The notes below the pieces were generated by a model. That model was not told where the DNA came from. It was given only the letters and a program-made list of their open reading frames with translations, and did not search any database. Of a stretch of DNA of 64,000 bases, positions 42,214 to 49,341 are shown piece by piece (position 1 is the first letter of the stretch; each line of letters begins with the position of its first letter). The DNA is from a virus (lineage: Duplodnaviria; Caudoviricetes). The position numbers and the translations under genes were made by a program. The DNA lies in IMG/VR virus record IMGVR_UViG_3300030090_003700, positions 494 to 64,493 of that record; one strand, 5' to 3'.

Positions 42214-42484
42214 ATTCTATATCTTCGTTATTAGTTACCATCCATTCACAATCACCTAATCTGTGACCTGCACCTAATAAAAATGCTTCACAAGATTCAT
42301 GGTCTGGATTCCATTCGTTTTCTTCGTTACATAATGCTCTAACATTATATCTATATACTTTACCATCGTTAAAGTCTAGTACAAATATATATTTAGTACG
42401 CTCAAATTTTTCTTTACGAGCGTGGTTAATAATATTATGTAATTCACTACCATGTTCTAATTCGTATGCTTTACTGCTATTCAT
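42203..42484 (-). CDS. Hypothetical protein
   Basis: 93-aa ORF coupled to neighbours. Confidence 0.6.
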   Translation of the reverse strand: MNSSKAYELEHGSELHNIINHARKEKFERTKYIFVLDFNDGKVYRYNVRALCNEENEWNPDHESCEAFLLGAGHRLGDCEWMVTNNEDIEYGN

Positions 42485-42935
42485 CTTCTTCTAATTTATA
42501 TTCACCAGTGTCTAATAGTTCTTCTTTCTTTTGGTCAAACAATTCCTCATATACATCAGGCCACCAGTTTTCTAGTTCATAATTAAAATCGTATTCCATA
42601 TCACTCCATAAGTTTGGGTCTACCCATACGTTACAACCAGCAGTTAATTCTTGAACAGCCTGCTCTGACCATTCAGAATAATCTTCATAGTAGTAACCGT
42701 CTTGTGATACATAAGGTCTAGACTCAAAGGTACACCAATATATATCGTAAGAATCACAGGTCATTTCACTATATATTTTTAAGGTATACTTGTCGTCAAT
42801 AAAGTCACTTGTATTGTCTAGTGTGCCTCCGTATTCTGATTGGATATACTCTAGTAACCAAGGACCATCTGGCTCTTCCATGAAGCCATCTTCATTTAGT
42901 TTTTCGATGATTATTTCATCAGTTAAAATTTCCAT
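42477..42935 (-). CDS. Highly acidic hypothetical protein
   Basis: 152 aa, extremely D/E- and aromatic-rich. Confidence 0.65.
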   Translation of the reverse strand: MEILTDEIIIEKLNEDGFMEEPDGPWLLEYIQSEYGGTLDNTSDFIDDKYTLKIYSEMTCDSYDIYWCTFESRPYVSQDGYYYEDYSEWSEQAVQELTAGCNVWVDPNLWSDMEYDFNYELENWWPDVYEELFDQKKEELLDTGEYKLEEDE

Positions 42936-42956
42936 AATTAATTGATTTTCAGTTAG

Positions 42957-43031
<75 letters not shown>

Positions 43032-43040
43032 ATAATATTT

Positions 43041-43510
43041 TAGGGTGGTATTGTGCACATACCCACGCTTTCTGAGGTTTCCGTCTTAGCCGTGCACTAC
43101 TATTTCAAGCTGTGACTATTCTTAAGTTACCGTCCTTCGTGTGTTACCCTAAGGCATTGCCCATGACTCGGTTAGATTCAGTGTAATACACTCCCGTACG
43201 TACCTCGGCAATTACCCCGTATACATCACATACACCTACTGTTACCACGTCTCGGTCCAGCCTCTGTCTCGGGTCGCTCATAGTGCCTTTGTAAAACCAG
43301 TCACTAGCGGTGCGCCTCTGACATTAATATTTTCGGGGGAAGAAACCCCAGCAGTCTCTTCTCATTACAGGTGATTCACATATCGGCACTTAGTCCCTAA
43401 TGTGATTTGCCTTGGGAGTCACCAACCCTTAAACGAGCCATTCACTTATGTGGTGTAACGGAATTTTACCGTACTTGGTTTGAACCACCGTGCTAAACTT
43501 GCACACCCTA
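43041..43510 (-). ncRNA. Candidate large structured non-coding RNA (~470 nt)
   Basis: No ORF in track, GC-richer than genome, ends complementary (TAGGGTG/CACCCTA), many hairpins, ends 9 nt before the tRNA. Confidence 0.65.
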
Positions 43511-43526
43511 ATTAAGTTACTCGTCT

Positions 43527-43718
43527 CTATTTACGCCGCCATGCTCTGTGAACACTTGCAGAAACTTCTTGGCTGACGATTTGTATAGTGTTACCCGTCT
43601 TGCCGCTGATAATTGGAACGTAACTATATTGACGTATAGCACTGCAGGAAACGCAAGTACTATAGCCTAAGGCGATACGGCCAGCGGGTATTACATTTGA
43701 ACATTTACATTTTTTCAT
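43527..43718 (-). CDS. DksA/TraR-type C4 zinc-finger protein
   Basis: CKC..VIPAGRIALGYSTCVSC resembles the C..C..IP..R......C..C TraR/DksA finger. Confidence 0.6.
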   Translation of the reverse strand: MKKCKCSNVIPAGRIALGYSTCVSCSAIRQYSYVPIISGKTGNTIQIVSQEVSASVHRAWRRK

Positions 43719-43721
43719 ACA

Positions 43722-43758
43722 CTTATAATATCAAATCTATTTCGTGTTAGGCTTGTAA
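43722..43758 (-). promoter_or_regulatory. Conserved phage promoter-like motif, copy 3
   Basis: - strand TTACAAGCCTAACACGAAATAGATTTGATATTATAAG. Confidence 0.7.
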
Positions 43759-43958
43759 TGATTTACTTCCATCCAGTTCAACATATACTCAATTGTTCTT
43801 ATTGTTATTGCTTTCTTTACTTCCTCATAATCGTCACCTTCTAATTCCTCTAGTTCAGGTATACCATCAACAGCCCAGTCAATTGAGTCATATATTTGGT
43901 CTAAACATACTTCGTGTAAGTATTCTGCTACTCTGTCTATTTCTTTCATTTTTCCCAT
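43737..43958 (-). CDS. Hypothetical early protein
   Basis: MGKMKEID...; start moved to ATG after upstream ORF. Confidence 0.55.
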   Translation of the reverse strand: MGKMKEIDRVAEYLHEVCLDQIYDSIDWAVDGIPELEELEGDDYEEVKKAITIRTIEYMLNWMEVNHYKPNTK

Positions 43959-43960
43959 AA

Positions 43961-44089
43961 TTAAAACCCGTAATGTGGTGTTGCACCAGTTAATAAATGT
44001 AATACTACTCCTATCCAACCAACAATTGTTAGTGTAGTTAATCCCGCAAATGCTATTTTAATAGCATAGTGTGTAAACTTTCTTTTCAT
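43961..44089 (-). CDS. Small single-TM protein (42 aa, not in ORF track)
   Basis: MKRKFTHYAIKIAFAGLTTLTIVGWIGVVLHLLTGATPHYGF read by hand. Confidence 0.55.
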   Translation of the reverse strand: MKRKFTHYAIKIAFAGLTTLTIVGWIGVVLHLLTGATPHYGF

Positions 44090-44283
44090 TGTATATAATC
44101 TTTTTCAATTGTTAAACCTAATTCTCTTGCAACGTAGTTAATATGTTTCTGGGTTGTTACACTCCACCATCCGTGTTGTATAAGTTTTCCCGGATATTCG
44201 ATCGTTGCGACGTGTGTTGAGTAAGACCATATGTCATTACCAACTCGTCTTAAATTTTCTTTATACCTGTTAAATTTTCTCAT
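44086..44283 (-). CDS. Hypothetical early protein
   Basis: SYSTHVA...WSVTTQKHINY. Confidence 0.65.
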   Translation of the reverse strand: MRKFNRYKENLRRVGNDIWSYSTHVATIEYPGKLIQHGWWSVTTQKHINYVARELGLTIEKDYIQ

Positions 44284-44465
44284 TAGTATATATTTTTATT
44301 TGCCCACTGTTGATACTCTTCCCAAGTTTGTTCTTGGTTCAGGTAGCCGTTGTAGACTTTACCGCCACCCATAAATTTTATTCCATTAAAGTTTCCGTTT
44401 TCTAAAAATTCCATTTGTTTGTTATTTCTTTGTTTGCAGCAGCGAGTGATTGTCTCCACTGCCAT
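44283..44465 (-). CDS. Hypothetical early protein (start probably MEFLEN)
   Basis: Stop coupled to next start. Confidence 0.45.
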   Translation of the reverse strand: MAVETITRCCKQRNNKQMEFLENGNFNGIKFMGGGKVYNGYLNQEQTWEEYQQWANKNIY

Positions 44466-46083: not shown

Positions 46084-46101
46084 AATTTTTAATTTTAATT
46101 G

Positions 46102-46257
46102 TTATTTATATATTTGTATTAATTTATTAATTTCTTTTAAGTTTTTAAAGTGATAGTGATATATAACTTTATTATTATTTAATATGGTAAAGTCATACAT
46201 TTTAAATTCTTTTGAGTAGATTATTTGGAAATAGTTTGGGTGTTTTGATTTTAACAT
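46102..46257 (-). CDS. Small protein (51 aa, not in ORF track)
   Basis: MLKSKHPNYFQIIYSK... downstream of promoter copy 6. Confidence 0.45.
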   Translation of the reverse strand: MLKSKHPNYFQIIYSKEFKMYDFTILNNNKVIYHYHFKNLKEINKLIQIYK

Positions 46258-46274
46258 TTTATTATTTTTTATTT

Positions 46275-46316
46275 GTTACATTAATAATATCAATTTCGTT
46301 TCGTGTTTAGTTTGTT
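46275..46316 (-). promoter_or_regulatory. Conserved phage promoter-like motif, copy 6
   Basis: - strand AACAAACTAAACACGAAACGAAATTGATATTATTAATGTAAC. Confidence 0.68.
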
Positions 46317-46530
46317 ACCAAGGCAGTATAGTTTTTTCAACATAGGTTAGACCTTTGTATTTTAGCCAGTGTGACTTGCCAGTTTTATATTGGTGATTGC
46401 CATCTTCGTCTTGGCCTAAGTATTTTGTTTTAAAGCCGAATGAGTTTGGAAGATTGCCGACTGTGTAGCCTTGATAGTAAGTGTTATTAACTTTAATAAC
46501 ATTGTCTTTTAAGAATTTAATTGTTAACAT
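46315..46530 (-). CDS. Hypothetical early protein (first gene of - arm)
   Basis: 71-aa ORF downstream of promoter copy 7. Confidence 0.6.
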   Translation of the reverse strand: MLTIKFLKDNVIKVNNTYYQGYTVGNLPNSFGFKTKYLGQDEDGNHQYKTGKSHWLKYKGLTYVEKTILPW

Positions 46531-46549
46531 AGTAATTTATTTTTTAATT

Positions 46550-46592
46550 GTTACACTTATAATATCAAATTAACTACGTGTTAACCTTGTAA
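46550..46592 (-). promoter_or_regulatory. Conserved phage promoter-like motif, copy 7
   Basis: - strand TTACAAGGTTAACACGTAGTTAATTTGATATTATAAGTGTAAC. Confidence 0.7.
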
Positions 46593-46940
46593 TTGCTATA
46601 CGCCATGCGGCGTTGAGGTCCCCAGGAAAAGCCCAATATCTACACGAATTTTTATATATACTATACACAACCGCACGACCTGATAGCACCGAATCCCGAG
46701 AACCTCGATTGCAAACGGCAAAACAGCATGGGGGCTGCGTTTAAAAATAACGTTTCCGGTTACAAGGGTGGCACGACAAGGCTATGCGTAACCCTTTTCC
46801 TCCCTATATCTTATAATATACGTACCTTATAATAAATAATGTTATTATTTATTTATATATGACATAAGATATAATTATATAATAGTAGGTAGCAAGCGTC
46901 GCATTATTAAAATTTACTATTTTTGAGTAATAATATAGAT

Positions 46941-47531: not shown

Positions 47532-49097
47532 ATGGAGTACAATAATCCTAGTGAGATAGTAAAGAATCTGTCTTTCGGGGCAGATGGAAAAGATAAAATA
47601 ATGCACGGGGTTGACAAATTAGCAAATGCTGTTAAATCAACCCTTGGTGCTTCAGGAAAATGCGTAATATACGAAGACGCATTAGGTCGGCCGGTTATAA
47701 CAAAAGACGGTGTAACGGTAGCAGAATCCGTAGTCTTATATGATCCGGTCGAAAATATAGGCGCAACCCTTATAAAGGAAGCGGCTAGGAATACAGTTAA
47801 AGAAGCTGGAGACGGCACAACAACAGCGACAGTGCTTGCGCAGGCATTGTTGCATTTAGCATATGCGAAGATTGAGGAAGAGGGTGTACGTAATATTAAA
47901 TTAGGTATATCCTCCGCCCTTGATAAAGTAACTGAGCACTTACAGGAGGAAGCAATTCCCGTCAAGGATGACATGTTAAGATCCGTGAGTGCTATTAGTT
48001 GCAATAATGATGAAGCTCTAGGAAATATCATATCGCAAGCCTATTCGAAAGTAGGTAAGGATGGTGTCGTCCTAATGGAAGAGTCTGAGACCCATGACAC
48101 ATACGTTAAATTCGTAGAGGGCACCAGAATAGAAGGCGGACTCAAATCGCCACATTTTATGACAGATAGGGATAAAGGTAAGGCAGTACTAGACAATCCG
48201 TACGTACTAATAGTATCTTCGCCAATACCCAATATTCGTAAAATACAAAATGTATTGGAGTTTGTTATTAAAAAGAAAAGGAGCTTATTAATCGTTGCAG
48301 GCGTAGAGCAACAACCTATGGCGGCTTTATTAGCTAACAAGGTAAAAGGCAATATAAAAGTTAATGTTGTAGATCTGCCTGGATTCGGACCAACTAAGCA
48401 AGATACAGTAGAAGATCTTGCGATATTGACTGGAGCTAAAATTATAAATGAAGAACTTGGTGATGATTTAGATTTAATTAATCCAGATGTTCTTGGTGAA
48501 GCTAAGCAAGCTATAACCGATAGTACCCATACAGTTCTTCAAACTATAGATCAAGGTAATGTTACTAAAGAACGTATTGAAAACGTTGAAAAGAAAGTAA
48601 AAAAAGAAAAAGATCCGTACTTTAAGAAGAAGCAACAAGAACGTTTAGCTATGCTAAATGGGCAAGTTGCGATGATAAAAGTCGGCGCCGATTCTAAAAT
48701 TGAGCTAAAAGAAAAGAAAGATAGGGTTGAAGACGCTATCTATGCAACTAAAGCCGCACTACAAGAAGGAATAGTATCTGGTGGTGGAGTTGCATTATTA
48801 GATGCTCACTATAATATACAACCAGAAAATGAAGGCGAACGTATTTTATTAGAAGCTATAAAGTCTCCATATAAAACTATTTTAGAAAATGCTAATTTAG
48901 AATATAAAGAAACGGGAAAACAAGGAACGGGTGTTAATGTTGTGTGTAATAAATCAGTTAACATGATTAAAGCTGGTATTATTGATCCTGTACTTGTAAC
49001 TAAAACAGCACTAAAAAATGCAGTTAGCGTTGTTAATACTATAATTTCTGCAGATTGTGTAATTTCAAATATAAGACTAGACAATGCAAGCAGTTAA
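47532..49097 (+). CDS. groEL: Phage-encoded chaperonin GroEL
   Basis: VKSTLGASG, ITKDGVTVA, AGDGTTTAT, PGFG, EKKDRVEDA, GIVSGGG, GIIDP motifs; no GGM tail. Confidence 0.95.
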   Translation: MEYNNPSEIVKNLSFGADGKDKIMHGVDKLANAVKSTLGASGKCVIYEDALGRPVITKDGVTVAESVVLYDPVENIGATLIKEAARNTVKEAGDGTTTATVLAQALLHLAYAKIEEEGVRNIKLGISSALDKVTEHLQEEAIPVKDDMLRSVSAISCNNDEALGNIISQAYSKVGKDGVVLMEESETHDTYVKFVEGTRIEGGLKSPHFMTDRDKGKAVLDNPYVLIVSSPIPNIRKIQNVLEFVIKKKRSLLIVAGVEQQPMAALLANKVKGNIKVNVVDLPGFGPTKQDTVEDLAILTGAKIINEELGDDLDLINPDVLGEAKQAITDSTHTVLQTIDQGNVTKERIENVEKKVKKEKDPYFKKKQQERLAMLNGQVAMIKVGADSKIELKEKKDRVEDAIYATKAALQEGIVSGGGVALLDAHYNIQPENEGERILLEAIKSPYKTILENANLEYKETGKQGTGVNVVCNKSVNMIKAGIIDPVLVTKTALKNAVSVVNTIISADCVISNIRLDNASS

Positions 49098-49341
49098 TTA
49101 TTATATAGTAATAGAAAAAATAAAAGAAGCGCCGAAGAAAGTAGGTGGCTTAGAACTTACCGAAGATCAAAATAAAGACATAAGATATTCAAAAGGTAAA
49201 ATAATTTCTGCCGGCGATAAGGTAGAGATGCTAAATAAAGGTGATATAGTACATTATGATAAACATGCAGGGCATGGAATTCAATGGAAAGATAAACTAT
49301 ATTATGTATTAAAACTTGGTGATATAGTTTTAGTTGAATGA
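49084..49341 (+). CDS. groES: Co-chaperonin GroES
   Basis: 85 aa overlapping groEL; mobile loop KVGGLEL, GKIISAG, GDIVHYDKHAG. Confidence 0.85.
   Translation: MQAVNYYIVIEKIKEAPKKVGGLELTEDQNKDIRYSKGKIISAGDKVEMLNKGDIVHYDKHAGHGIQWKDKLYYVLKLGDIVLVE

What the first reader, a model, noticed from the sequence alone, without database searches (positions are those of the whole stretch)
43041..43510. ~470-nt structured non-coding element with paired ends, co-oriented with initiator tRNA
Seen: an ORF-free, GC-richer block in an otherwise densely coding genome. Its ends are exact complements (TAGGGTG 43041-43047, CACCCTA 43504-43510). Internal helices include GTGCAC/GTGCAC (43053/43092), AGTGT..ACACT (43180-43192), GGGG..CCCC (43336-43349), TCACAT/ATGTGA (43376/43400), ACGG..CCGT (43458-43472) and TGGT..ACCA (43476-43487). 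On the - strand it ends 9 nt before the tRNA-fMet 5' end. Established: large phage ncRNAs such as GOLLD and ROOL often lie beside tRNA genes. Inference: a discrete RNA released by RNase P cleavage of the tRNA leader; it may be a compact GOLLD/ROOL relative or a new class. I could not recognise tmRNA, RNase P or intron hallmarks.
Basis: partly seen in the sequence, partly recalled or inferred. Interest (0 to 1): 0.8.

Follow-up and report, generated by a model that had tools for sequence, protein, structure and literature searches.

The report
Modular structured RNA beside phage tRNA-Met
The ORF-free block upstream of the phage's initiator-type tRNA is a real, conserved, modular structured RNA with no match to any described RNA family, and its function is still unknown.

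Summary
Window 43032-43526 is ORF-free and GC-richer than the window (0.46 against 0.33).

The evidence that it is an RNA is comparative, not thermodynamic; fold energies are no better than shuffles. On the minus strand the block is a mosaic of conserved cores and swappable hairpins.
- **5' module (43431-43526):** found in 89 distinct instances from uncultured ~50-70 kb phage contigs. One pair switches C-G (59) to G-C (20) without exception. The variable hairpin has 47 different closing stems.
- **Central core (about 43266-43336):** shared by only five close relatives.
- **3' domain (43040-43152):** a three-way junction in about 21 instances; 96.7% of cells pair and 6 of 14 pairs show compensatory change.

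G-U pairs fix the strand as minus. Rfam gives only the tRNA, so membership of GOLLD, ROOL, tmRNA or RNase P is not met.

The 5' module starts within 9 nt of the stop codon of a conserved 63-aa zinc-finger-like gene in 36 of 67 cases. The 3' domain ends 8 nt before tRNA-Met. Short contigs from four marine RNA libraries cover the block.

Function is inferred only: a processed stable RNA from a zinc-finger gene, RNA, tRNA transcript.

The parts
43719..43735 (-). Promoter-like 17-nt motif directly upstream of the zinc-finger-like gene. An identical second copy lies at 46553-46569.
   Evidence: two exact copies and one copy with 3 mismatches. This count is not above chance, since 19 of 100 shuffles give 3 or more matches at 3 mismatches or fewer. 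The extended ~45-nt similarity between the two copies is read directly. Promoter function is inferred.
43527..43718 (-). Conserved 63-aa CxC...CxxC zinc-finger-like gene. Its stop codon abuts the RNA.
   Evidence: One search gives the translation. One search finds homologues in 39 of 53 related loci at 42-98% identity. One search finds it upstream of the 5' module in 67 of 85 instances, with a gap of 9 nt or less in 36 of those 67. There is no Pfam or PHROGs hit. The protein Atlas gives only a lead to the TraR/DksA zinc finger at score 0.87.
43431..43526 (-). 5' module. P1 pairs 43519-43526 with 43431-43438. P2 pairs 43513-43517 with 43444-43448. P3 is a variable hairpin, closing stem 43503-43507 with 43452-43456.
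   Evidence: Searches give 93 matching stretches and 89 distinct instances. One search covers 79 unique sequences: one P2 pair is C-G 59 and G-C 20 with none broken; its neighbour is G-U 67, A-U 6, G-C 5, A-C 1. The P3 end helix averages 6.06 bp against 3.17 in shuffles, with 47 distinct closing stems among 66 inserts. RNAalifold predicts P1 and P2 independently.
43337..43430 (-).
   Evidence: It is shared only with the two nearest relatives (L009/L173 and L011/L159). Other relatives carry different hairpins here. The structure comes from the constrained fold only; covariation could not be tested.
43266..43336 (-). Central conserved core: two conserved blocks flanking a variable hairpin.
   Evidence: the blocks are near-identical in the window, L009, L010, L005 and L011. 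The hairpin between them has four unrelated sequences, each self-complementary at its ends. One search finds these blocks in only 5 of the 89 instances.
43153..43265 (-). Central region 2. It includes a recurrent swappable hairpin module at about 43180-43236.
   Evidence: The same module occurs as the P3 insert and as the insert of the 3' domain in other phages. The helices come from the constrained fold only.
43040..43152 (-). 3' three-way-junction domain. Pa pairs 43146-43152 with 43040-43046. Pb pairs 43138-43141 with 43064-43067. Pc pairs 43129-43131 with 43076-43078 and carries a variable hairpin. Pd is a hairpin, 43059-43063 with 43047-43051.
   Evidence: One search gives 18 unique instances, with one more and two; 96.7% of cells paired, 6 of 14 pairs changed on both sides, 0 of 500 shuffles as high, slid controls 24-51% paired. 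The MFE fold of the minimal 74-nt version in L072 reproduces all four helices. Covariance model R1 scores 79.3 bits on L018, which was not in the training set.
43032..43039 (-). A/U-rich spacer between the 3' domain and the tRNA. A near-copy lies at 43325-43337.
   Evidence: One search reports the 13-nt direct repeat at 92% identity. A similar spacer precedes the 3' domain in 6 of 18 relatives (flanks).
42956..43031 (-). tRNA-Met (CAT), initiator-like.
   Evidence: ARAGORN. Rfam tRNA at 65.7 bits, with the 1-72 pair flagged as non-standard. Three G-C pairs in the anticodon stem are read from the sequence. The initiator criteria are recalled knowledge.

Best explanation
Window 43032-43526, read on the minus strand, encodes a roughly 495-nt modular structured non-coding RNA.

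**Shown**
- It is built from conserved cores joined by hairpins whose sequences are exchanged between phages while their stems stay paired.
- The 5' module is an irregular hairpin (P1-P2-P3).
- The central core is found only in close relatives.
- The 3' domain is a three-way junction (Pa, Pb/Pc, Pd).

**Inferred**
- It is transcribed with the upstream 63-aa zinc-finger-like gene, whose stop codon touches the 5' module, and with the downstream initiator-type tRNA-Met.
- RNase P cleavage at the tRNA 5' end sets its 3' end.
- The product is one or several stable folded RNAs.

**Guess at function (weak)**
- It may serve as a protein-binding scaffold or decoy aimed at the host's tRNA-processing or translation machinery, or as the partner of the zinc-finger-like protein.
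- This guess rests on relatives that fill the same slot with tRNA-like and tmRNA-like units.

It resembles GOLLD and ROOL in setting only. It is not a detectable member of either family.
For: **Conservation outside coding sequence**
- Six blocks are near-identical across relatives whose intervening sequence is unrelated.

**5' module**
- The 5' motif matches 93 stretches in IMG/VR. These give 89 distinct instances, and 84 carry the second half within 130 nt.
- In 79 unique sequences one P2 pair is C-G in 59 and G-C in 20, with none broken. The search pattern did not constrain the 3' partner.
- The same hairpin inserts occur with both versions of that pair.
- P3 closing helices average 6.06 bp against 3.17 in shuffles, with 47 distinct stems.

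**3' domain**
- 96.7% of 243 cells pair and 6 of 14 pairs show compensatory change. No shuffle of 500 reaches this, and slid controls pair at 24-51%.
- RNAalifold finds P1, P2, Pb, Pc and Pd without guidance.
- The pair flanking Pa is complementary in 11 of 18 sequences with three pair types.

**Strand**
- G-U pairs (67 of 79 in P2; 11 of 18 at one Pd pair) would be A-C mismatches on the plus strand.

**Not coding, not a DNA repeat element**
- There is no conserved frame and no iterons.

**Context**
- The zinc-finger-like gene lies upstream in 67 of 85 instances. The gap is 9 nt or less in 36 of those 67.
- 14 of the 18 3' domains are followed within about 12 nt by a tRNA-Met start.
- No terminator is predicted in 42400-44400.

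**RNA libraries**
- Contigs from 4 of 4 marine metatranscriptome runs (4 studies) lie on the block with few differences. Examples are 43335-43448, 43419-43532, 43287-43452, 43255-43391, 43146-43282 and 43359-43510.

**Phage-restricted**
- Only 1 of 6 motif matches in 596 Gb of prokaryote genomes is a true instance, and it sits on a 6.7-kb contig of a metagenome-assembled genome (MAG).
Against: - Fold energies are not better than shuffles. The whole stretch gives z = +1.08, and single domains give -1.56 to +0.17.
- The middle third (43153-43430) is shared only with very close relatives, so its structure has no covariation support.
- No long-range pairing ties the 5' and 3' modules together. Each occurs without the other: the 3' domain is present in only about 21 instances against 89 for the 5' module, and L016 has the 3' domain without the 5' module. 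The block may therefore be a string of separate RNAs rather than one RNA.
- The 5' half of the 5' module is conserved partly by construction, because it was the search pattern.
- The shuffle control ignores relatedness of the sequences. Some compensatory changes are single events; the Pb switch occurs only in two close relatives.
- Contigs from RNA libraries cannot show strand, ends or level, and DNA carry-over was not excluded because no silent control stretch was laid.
- Nothing tested here bears on function.
Confidence: 0.55

Rival explanations
1. The block is not one RNA. It is an array of independent small structured units (5' module, central core, 3' domain), each cut out of a polycistronic precursor in the way tRNAs are. 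The 3' domain would be a tRNA-shaped unit processed at its own 5' side.
For: - The modules occur separately and in different combinations.
- A similar A/U-rich spacer precedes both the 3' domain and the tRNA.
- In 5 of 18 cases the 3' domain follows the 3' end of a tRNA-like unit after 5-6 nt.
- Pd has a 5-bp stem and a 7-nt loop that abuts the 3' strand of Pa. This is the topology of a T arm next to an acceptor stem, read. The comparison itself is recalled knowledge.
- No conserved long-range helix joins the modules.
Against: - The Pd loop is not a T-loop, and the window has no extra T-loop motif.
- No tRNA-model hit occurs in the block even at E <= 10.
- In the window's subfamily P1 encloses only the 5' module, and the rest is collinear in 5 relatives. 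That is equally compatible with a single RNA.
- No RNA ends were observed.
Confidence: 0.3
2. It is a highly diverged or miniaturised relative of GOLLD or ROOL and, like them, assembles into a homo-oligomeric RNA cage.
For: - The setting is the same. GOLLD and ROOL are phage or prophage RNAs often found near tRNA islands. One GOLLD came from a marine sample next to a Met-tRNA. GOLLD has a conserved 3' region and a variable 5' region, and tRNAs sometimes sit in its linker (passages read; ROOL passages).
- This RNA also has variable ornaments. Relatives embed tRNA-like units.
- The Pd loop holds a 6-nt palindrome that stays a palindrome when it changes: 15 sequences carry one version and 3 carry the other.
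Against: - There is no Rfam match to GOLLD, ROOL or any other family at E <= 10 on 1.1 kb, nor at gathering score on 11 related loci.
- It is 215-580 nt long, against about 580 nt for ROOL and over 800 nt for GOLLD.
- The palindrome change is equally explained by an ordinary closing pair (G-C to A-U) around a 4-nt loop.
- No oligomerisation data exist.
Confidence: 0.08
3. The 5' module is mainly an mRNA-end element. It would be a processing site, for example for RNase III, or a stabilising 3' hairpin that separates the zinc-finger-like mRNA from the downstream RNAs. The rest would be a tRNA leader.
For: - The module starts 0-9 nt after the stop codon in 36 of 67 cases.
- P1, P2 and P3 stack to about 20 bp with conserved internal loops. 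This resembles phage intergenic RNase III sites, a comparison that is recalled and not tested.
- The module is always the first element of the island.
Against: - It does not explain the strict conservation of the unpaired stretches, the central core, or the 3' domain with its conserved junction strands.
- A 3' domain also occurs where no tRNA follows, in 4 of 18 cases.
Confidence: 0.15
4. It is a DNA-level feature (regulatory region, origin, packaging site) or decayed tRNA genes, and not a functional RNA.
For: - The block lies in the early, DNA-metabolism gene region.
- Its fold energies are ordinary.
- Relatives hold tRNA-like sequences at the same slot.
Against: - Compensatory changes with G-U pairs on one strand only.
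- No iterons.
- No tRNA-model similarity at E <= 10 and no T-loop.
- The conserved blocks are kept across phages whose proteins are only 44-75% identical.
Confidence: 0.04

Closest known systems
GOLLD RNA (Rfam RF01998) and ROOL RNA (RF03087)
   Same: All are phage-borne, large for a bacterial ncRNA, ornate with variable peripheral hairpins, next to tRNA genes and of unknown function. GOLLD has a conserved 3' part, a variable 5' part and sometimes embedded tRNAs (passages).
   Different: There is no sequence or structure match in Rfam searches. This RNA is smaller (215-580 nt). Its cores are different. No pseudoknots or quaternary contacts are shown. It is tightly coupled to a small zinc-finger-like gene.
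Small stable RNAs encoded in the tRNA gene cluster of phage T4 (recalled from the literature, no call)
   Same: They are non-tRNA stable RNAs co-transcribed with phage tRNAs, released by the tRNA-processing enzymes, and of unknown function.
   Different: No model or sequence was on hand, so nothing was compared. The T4 RNAs are recalled as much shorter.
tmRNA and tRNA-like RNAs of phages
   Same: Relatives of this phage place tRNA-like units in the same slot. These include a 77-149 nt unit that matches the tRNA-like domain of the Rfam tmRNA model at 36.2 bits, with a third acceptor pair that is G-U. Marine phages are known to carry tmRNA genes (passages).
   Different: The window's own RNA has no T-loop, no tmRNA call and no tRNA-model hit. 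The relatives' units lack a tag reading frame and score below the family cut-off of 47 bits.
Bulk catalogue of candidate structured RNAs from IMG/VR (PMC10690425)
   Same: That study mined intergenic regions of the same collection and lists 8495 unnamed motifs of 29-151 nt, including tRNA-like ones (passages). Single modules of this RNA may be among them.
   Different: No 200-500 nt modular RNA is described in the passages read.

Membership tests
GOLLD (RF01998) | Match to the family covariance model at or above its gathering score | tested here: not met
   Searches (gathering score; window and 11 related loci; E <= 10 on 42800-43900) return no GOLLD match.
GOLLD / ROOL | Phage or prophage location near tRNA genes | tested here: met
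   The record is a virus record. tRNA-Met starts 8 nt after the 3' domain. This is context, not homology.
GOLLD / ROOL | Homo-oligomeric cage held by kissing loops and A-minor contacts | not testable with these tools
   This needs native gels, SEC-MALS or cryo-EM.
ROOL (RF03087) | Match to the family covariance model | tested here: not met
   Searches return no match.
tmRNA (RF00023, permuted RF04321) | tRNA-like domain with a T-loop plus a tag reading frame | tested here: not met
   ARAGORN finds no tmRNA in the window. Rfam gives no match in the block. The only T-loop motif in the window is that of tRNA-Met. Relatives carry a partial match at 36.2 bits, below the cut-off of 47.
RNase P RNA | Match to any Rfam RNase P model | tested here: not met
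   Searches return no match. A resemblance of single blocks recalled from memory was not pursued.
Group I / group II intron | Match to intron models and an interrupted host gene | tested here: not met
   Rfam gives no match. The flanking zinc-finger-like gene and the tRNA are intact.
Bacterial Y RNA (YrlA) | tRNA-like domain plus a Ro60 (TROVE) gene nearby | tested here: not met
   The phage record has no TROVE domain, while the search found TROVE in 2 of 14 control genomes. Rfam gives no match.
Riboswitch or other cis-regulatory leader | Match to a known aptamer, with an expression platform before a coding gene | tested here: not met
   Rfam gives no match. The element is followed by a tRNA, not an ORF.

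The most novel reading that the evidence does not exclude
The block is the window's version of a phage 'RNA island'. A zinc-finger-like gene is followed by a conserved capping module and an exchangeable set of folded units, ending in an initiator tRNA. In relatives these units include tRNA mimics and an alanine-type mini-tmRNA. The units would be cut out by the host's tRNA-processing enzymes. They would act as decoys or hijackers of host tRNA-directed machinery, such as anticodon nucleases, trans-translation, RNase P or the CCA-adding enzyme. The window's 3' domain would be a new tRNA-shaped mimic without a T-loop.
Probability: 0.15. Interest if true: 0.85.

Novelty: new variant of a known kind. 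Interest (0 to 1): 0.62.

Why it matters
Large structured RNAs of phages are rare, and their functions are an open question. GOLLD and ROOL were only recently shown to form cages, and their roles remain unknown.

This family adds a third, unrelated example in the same setting (phage, next to a Met-tRNA). It has several features that make it tractable:
- a minimal 3' domain of about 65-75 nt;
- a 5' module with about 80 natural variants;
- a conserved small protein neighbour that is an obvious candidate partner.

The exchange of whole hairpin modules between positions and between phages is a natural experiment in RNA modularity. The tRNA-like and tmRNA-like units that relatives carry in the same slot point to interference with host tRNA biology, and that can be tested.

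Tried and rejected
**Folding energy**
- Whole-block and per-domain z-scores are ordinary. They were not used as support.

**Searches that gave little**
- blastn of 42900-43800 against 50,697 phage records matched only the tRNA part.
- tblastn of the 179-aa neighbour found no cultured relative. GroEL gave only about 39% matches to Flavobacterium and Bacteroides phages, so the host remains unknown.
- Pfam and PHROGs name none of the five neighbouring small proteins.
- The genome-contig scan with the 5' motif gave 6 matches. Five lack the second half and are chance.
- The metagenome scan used a pattern too short for that collection.
- The viral scan used an over-strict pattern. It found 9 stretches, all already held.
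- Model R1 found only one new 3' domain in 100 sources.

**Structure**
- RNAalifold on alignment A1 left the middle of the RNA unstructured.
- The long-range helix 43423-43428 with 43271-43276 from the constrained fold is not kept in L010 or L005, by eye. It was dropped.
- The kissing-loop reading of the Pd palindrome is kept only as a low-probability idea.

**Other readings rejected**
- Reading the 5' module as a tmRNA tag frame was rejected, because the covarying pair shows RNA pairing.
- Resemblances of single blocks to RNase P RNA, 5S rRNA and 16S rRNA were recalled from memory. They were not tested and not used.
- A Ro60 (TROVE) gene is absent.

**Read laying**
- In runs X1, X3 and X5 no contig covered most of the zinc-finger-like coding part although the block was covered.
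- One X1 contig joins the tRNA, 61 other letters and 43268-43320. It is probably a relative with another module order and shows no single transcript.

- Supplementary files of papers were closed, so the motif lists of PMC10690425 could not be checked.

- timed out and was replaced.
- One search used a faulty regular expression; it was debugged and fixed.
It was turned back for a missing confidence value, which is now added.
Full report
**1. The observation**

The window is a 64.5-kb IMG/VR virus record, rated complete.
- Genes around the finding run on the minus strand.
- ARAGORN and Rfam place one tRNA-Met (CAT) at 42956-43031 on the minus strand.
- Between it and the next long ORF lie about 700 nt. 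The distal 192 nt (43527-43718) are a real gene. It encodes a 63-aa CxC...CxxC protein with homologues in 39 of 53 related loci.
- The truly non-coding block is therefore 43032-43526, 495 nt. Its GC is 0.461 against 0.328 for the window.
- The only ORF of 30 aa or more inside it is not conserved as a frame.
- The terminal complement is 8 nt long and is reached by 21 of 2000 shuffles.
- Folding energy does not single the region out. The z-scores are +1.08 and +1.09 for the two strands of 709 nt and -1.56 to +0.17 for single domains.

**2. Known families**

Rfam 15 finds nothing but the tRNA.
- This holds at gathering score over the whole window.
- It holds at E <= 10 with lax filters over 42800-43900.
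- It holds at gathering score over 11 related loci.
- No tmRNA is called.
- The only T-loop motif in the window is that of the tRNA.
- The phage has no Ro60/TROVE gene.

**3. Relatives**

Neighbouring proteins retrieved 6 and 47 related IMG/VR loci.
- BLAST of the block against them gave a patchwork. Short stretches of 20-50 nt match at 90-100% identity, in collinear order, separated by unrelated sequence of varying length.
- An alignment of seven versions shows six conserved blocks with variable inserts.
- Scanning IMG/VR with the first block as a degenerate 19-mer gave 93 stretches and 89 distinct instances including the window.
- In 596 Gb of prokaryote genomes the same pattern hit 6 times. 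Only one is a true instance, on a 6.7-kb MAG contig.
- The family is therefore phage-restricted as far as these collections show.

**4. The 5' module (43431-43526)**

Eighty-four of the 89 instances carry a second conserved half within 130 nt, and 79 are unique.
- Between the halves lies a hairpin of 8 to about 105 nt with many unrelated sequences.
- Among 66 distinct inserts the ends form a helix of 6.06 bp on average, against 3.17 in shuffles. Seventy-four percent reach 5 bp or more, against 15% of shuffles. There are 47 different closing stems.
- In the 5-bp helix P2 that flanks the hairpin, one pair is C-G in 59 and G-C in 20 sequences, with none broken.
- Its neighbour is G-U 67, A-U 6, G-C 5, A-C 1.
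- The 3' partners were not part of the search pattern.
- Identical inserts occur with both versions of the switching pair. The switch is therefore not one clade marker, or else the modules recombine.
- In the window's subfamily an outer helix P1 closes the module. RNAalifold predicts P1 and P2 unaided.
- Next to P2 the two strands carry letters that I recall as the consensus of a sarcin-ricin/loop-E type internal loop. That is a recalled resemblance and was not tested.

**5. The 3' domain (43040-43152)**

Eighteen unique instances were collected. One more came from a covariance-model search (L018, 79.3 bits, not in the training set) and two from metagenome contigs.
- The domain has a closing helix Pa and a helix Pb. 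Pb leads through a conserved internal loop to Pc, which carries a hairpin of 6-100 nt. A hairpin Pd abuts the 3' strand of Pa.
- On alignment A2 the helices Pb, Pc and Pd pair in 96.7% of 243 cells.
- Six of 14 pairs change on both sides. None of 500 shuffles reaches these values, and sliding the partners by 1-3 columns drops pairing to 24-51%.
- The Pd stem occurs in five compensated versions, and a sixth appears in a metagenome contig.
- Pa itself is invariant. Its flanking pair is complementary in 11 of 18 sequences (A-U 7, U-A 3, G-U 1). Five of the other seven gain an inner U-A pair instead.
- The minimal 74-nt version folds by energy alone into exactly these four helices.
- G-U pairs in P2 and Pd fix the RNA strand as minus.

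**6. The middle (43153-43430)**

Two further conserved blocks (about 43266-43336) flank a hairpin with four unrelated, self-complementary sequences in five relatives. Only 5 of the 89 instances have this core.
- The rest of the middle is shared only with the two nearest relatives, so it cannot be tested.
- A hairpin module at about 43180-43236 recurs elsewhere as the P3 insert and as the Pc insert. Whole hairpins therefore move between positions.

**7. One RNA or several?**

In the other eight RNAs with both end modules it is 4-6 bp in shifting registers. Pa uses the same 3' letters in a constant register in all ten.
- No other long-range pairing was found.
- The modules occur independently. 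The 3' domain occurs in about 21 instances against 89 for the 5' module, and L016 has it without the 5' module.
- A 13-nt A/U-rich spacer is repeated before the central core and before the tRNA. A like spacer precedes the 3' domain in 6 of 18 relatives.
- I therefore keep 'array of separately processed units' as a strong rival at 0.3.

**8. Context and expression**

The zinc-finger-like gene lies upstream on the same strand in 67 of 85 instances with enough flank.
- In 36 of those 67 the module starts within 9 nt of the stop codon, and in 23 the distance is exactly 2 nt.
- A tRNA-Met follows within 1.5 kb in only 25 of 61 instances.
- Of the 18 3' domains, 14 are followed within about 12 nt by a tRNA-Met start.
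- No terminator is predicted between the gene and the tRNA.
- A 17-nt motif directly upstream of the gene recurs exactly at 46553-46569 and may be a promoter.
- Co-transcription of gene, RNA and tRNA, and 3' end formation by RNase P, are inferences from these facts and from the general role of RNase P.
- Marine metatranscriptome runs from 17 studies hold small shares of the stretch.
- In the four runs laid, short contigs lie on most of the block with few differences.
- Contigs cannot show strand, ends or level, and DNA carry-over was not controlled.

**9. Relatives fill the slot differently**

Many relatives carry tRNA-like units between the 5' module and the tRNA.
- One type (27 loci, 22 unique, 77-149 nt) matches the tRNA-like domain of the Rfam tmRNA model at 36.2 bits, below the cut-off of 47. 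Its third acceptor pair is G-U, which I recall as the alanine identity element.
- A second type occurs in 17 loci.
- The window has neither.
- This suggests that the island as a whole deals with host tRNA biology. That is the basis of my guess at function, and it is weak.

**10. Comparison and novelty**

GOLLD and ROOL share the setting. They are phage RNAs near tRNA islands. One GOLLD came from a marine sample beside a Met-tRNA. GOLLD has a conserved 3' part and a variable 5' part, and tRNAs sometimes sit in its linker (passages read).
- Membership fails the model test.
- Searches of the paper library for related descriptions were made. I read only listings and abstracts, plus passages of four papers. 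None describes this RNA.
- A bulk catalogue of 8495 unnamed IMG/VR motifs of 29-151 nt exists (PMC10690425, passages). Its lists are in supplements that I could not open, so single modules may already be listed there.
- I rate the finding a new RNA family of a known general kind.

**11. Verdict**

- The element is real and conserved, and it is structured in its 5' module, central core and 3' domain; the rest of the middle could not be tested.

Noticed in passing
L034:3312-3440 and 26 other related loci (not in the window): A 77-149 nt tRNA-like unit with an acceptor stem, a D-loop-like stretch, a T arm and a variable hairpin in place of the anticodon arm. It matches the tRNA-like domain of the Rfam tmRNA model at 36.2 bits (cut-off 47). 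Its third acceptor pair is G-U, and no tag frame is evident. It is a possible mini-tmRNA or an alanine-accepting mimic.
   Followed up: partly
L071:4030-4130, L034:3090-3190 and others (17 loci): A second tRNA-like unit type: a 6-bp acceptor-like stem, a T arm with a canonical T-loop and a variable internal hairpin. It lies directly after the 5' module. ARAGORN does not call it as a tRNA.
   Followed up: partly
window 46084-46922: An intergenic region of about 840 nt between divergent genes. It is very AT-rich at 46084-46300 (GC 0.16-0.18). An ORF-poor stretch at about 46590-46800 is GC-rich (0.485) and could be a second non-coding RNA. There is no Rfam hit at gathering score.
   Followed up: no
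window 43719-43735 and 46553-46569 (minus strand): An identical 17-nt motif within a repeat of about 45 nt, each copy directly upstream of a minus-strand gene start. It is promoter-like.
   Followed up: partly
window 43527-43718 (minus strand): A 63-aa CxC...CxxC protein with a basic C-terminus. It is conserved across the phage group and has no Pfam or PHROGs family. The protein Atlas gives only a lead to the TraR/DksA zinc finger at score 0.87.
   Followed up: partly
window 43180-43236; also the P3 or Pc inserts of L106, L108, L121, L148, L056, L060, L113, L119, L087: One hairpin module with a conserved purine-rich internal stretch turns up at three different positions of the RNA in different phages. 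Peripheral hairpins therefore appear to be exchanged as units.
   Followed up: partly
window 42956-43031 (minus strand): The tRNA-Met has a non-standard 1-72 pair (A opposite A in the Rfam alignment) and three consecutive G-C pairs in the anticodon stem. These are initiator-like features by recalled criteria.
   Followed up: no
L189:2054-2200: A 6.7-kb contig binned into an Ilumatobacteraceae MAG carries a complete 5' module. It is probably a phage contig that was mis-binned.
   Followed up: no
window 47532-49341: The phage encodes GroEL (521 aa) and a GroES-like protein. The best matches, at about 39% identity, are chaperonins of Flavobacterium and Bacteroides phages. This is a weak hint at a Bacteroidota host.
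   Followed up: no
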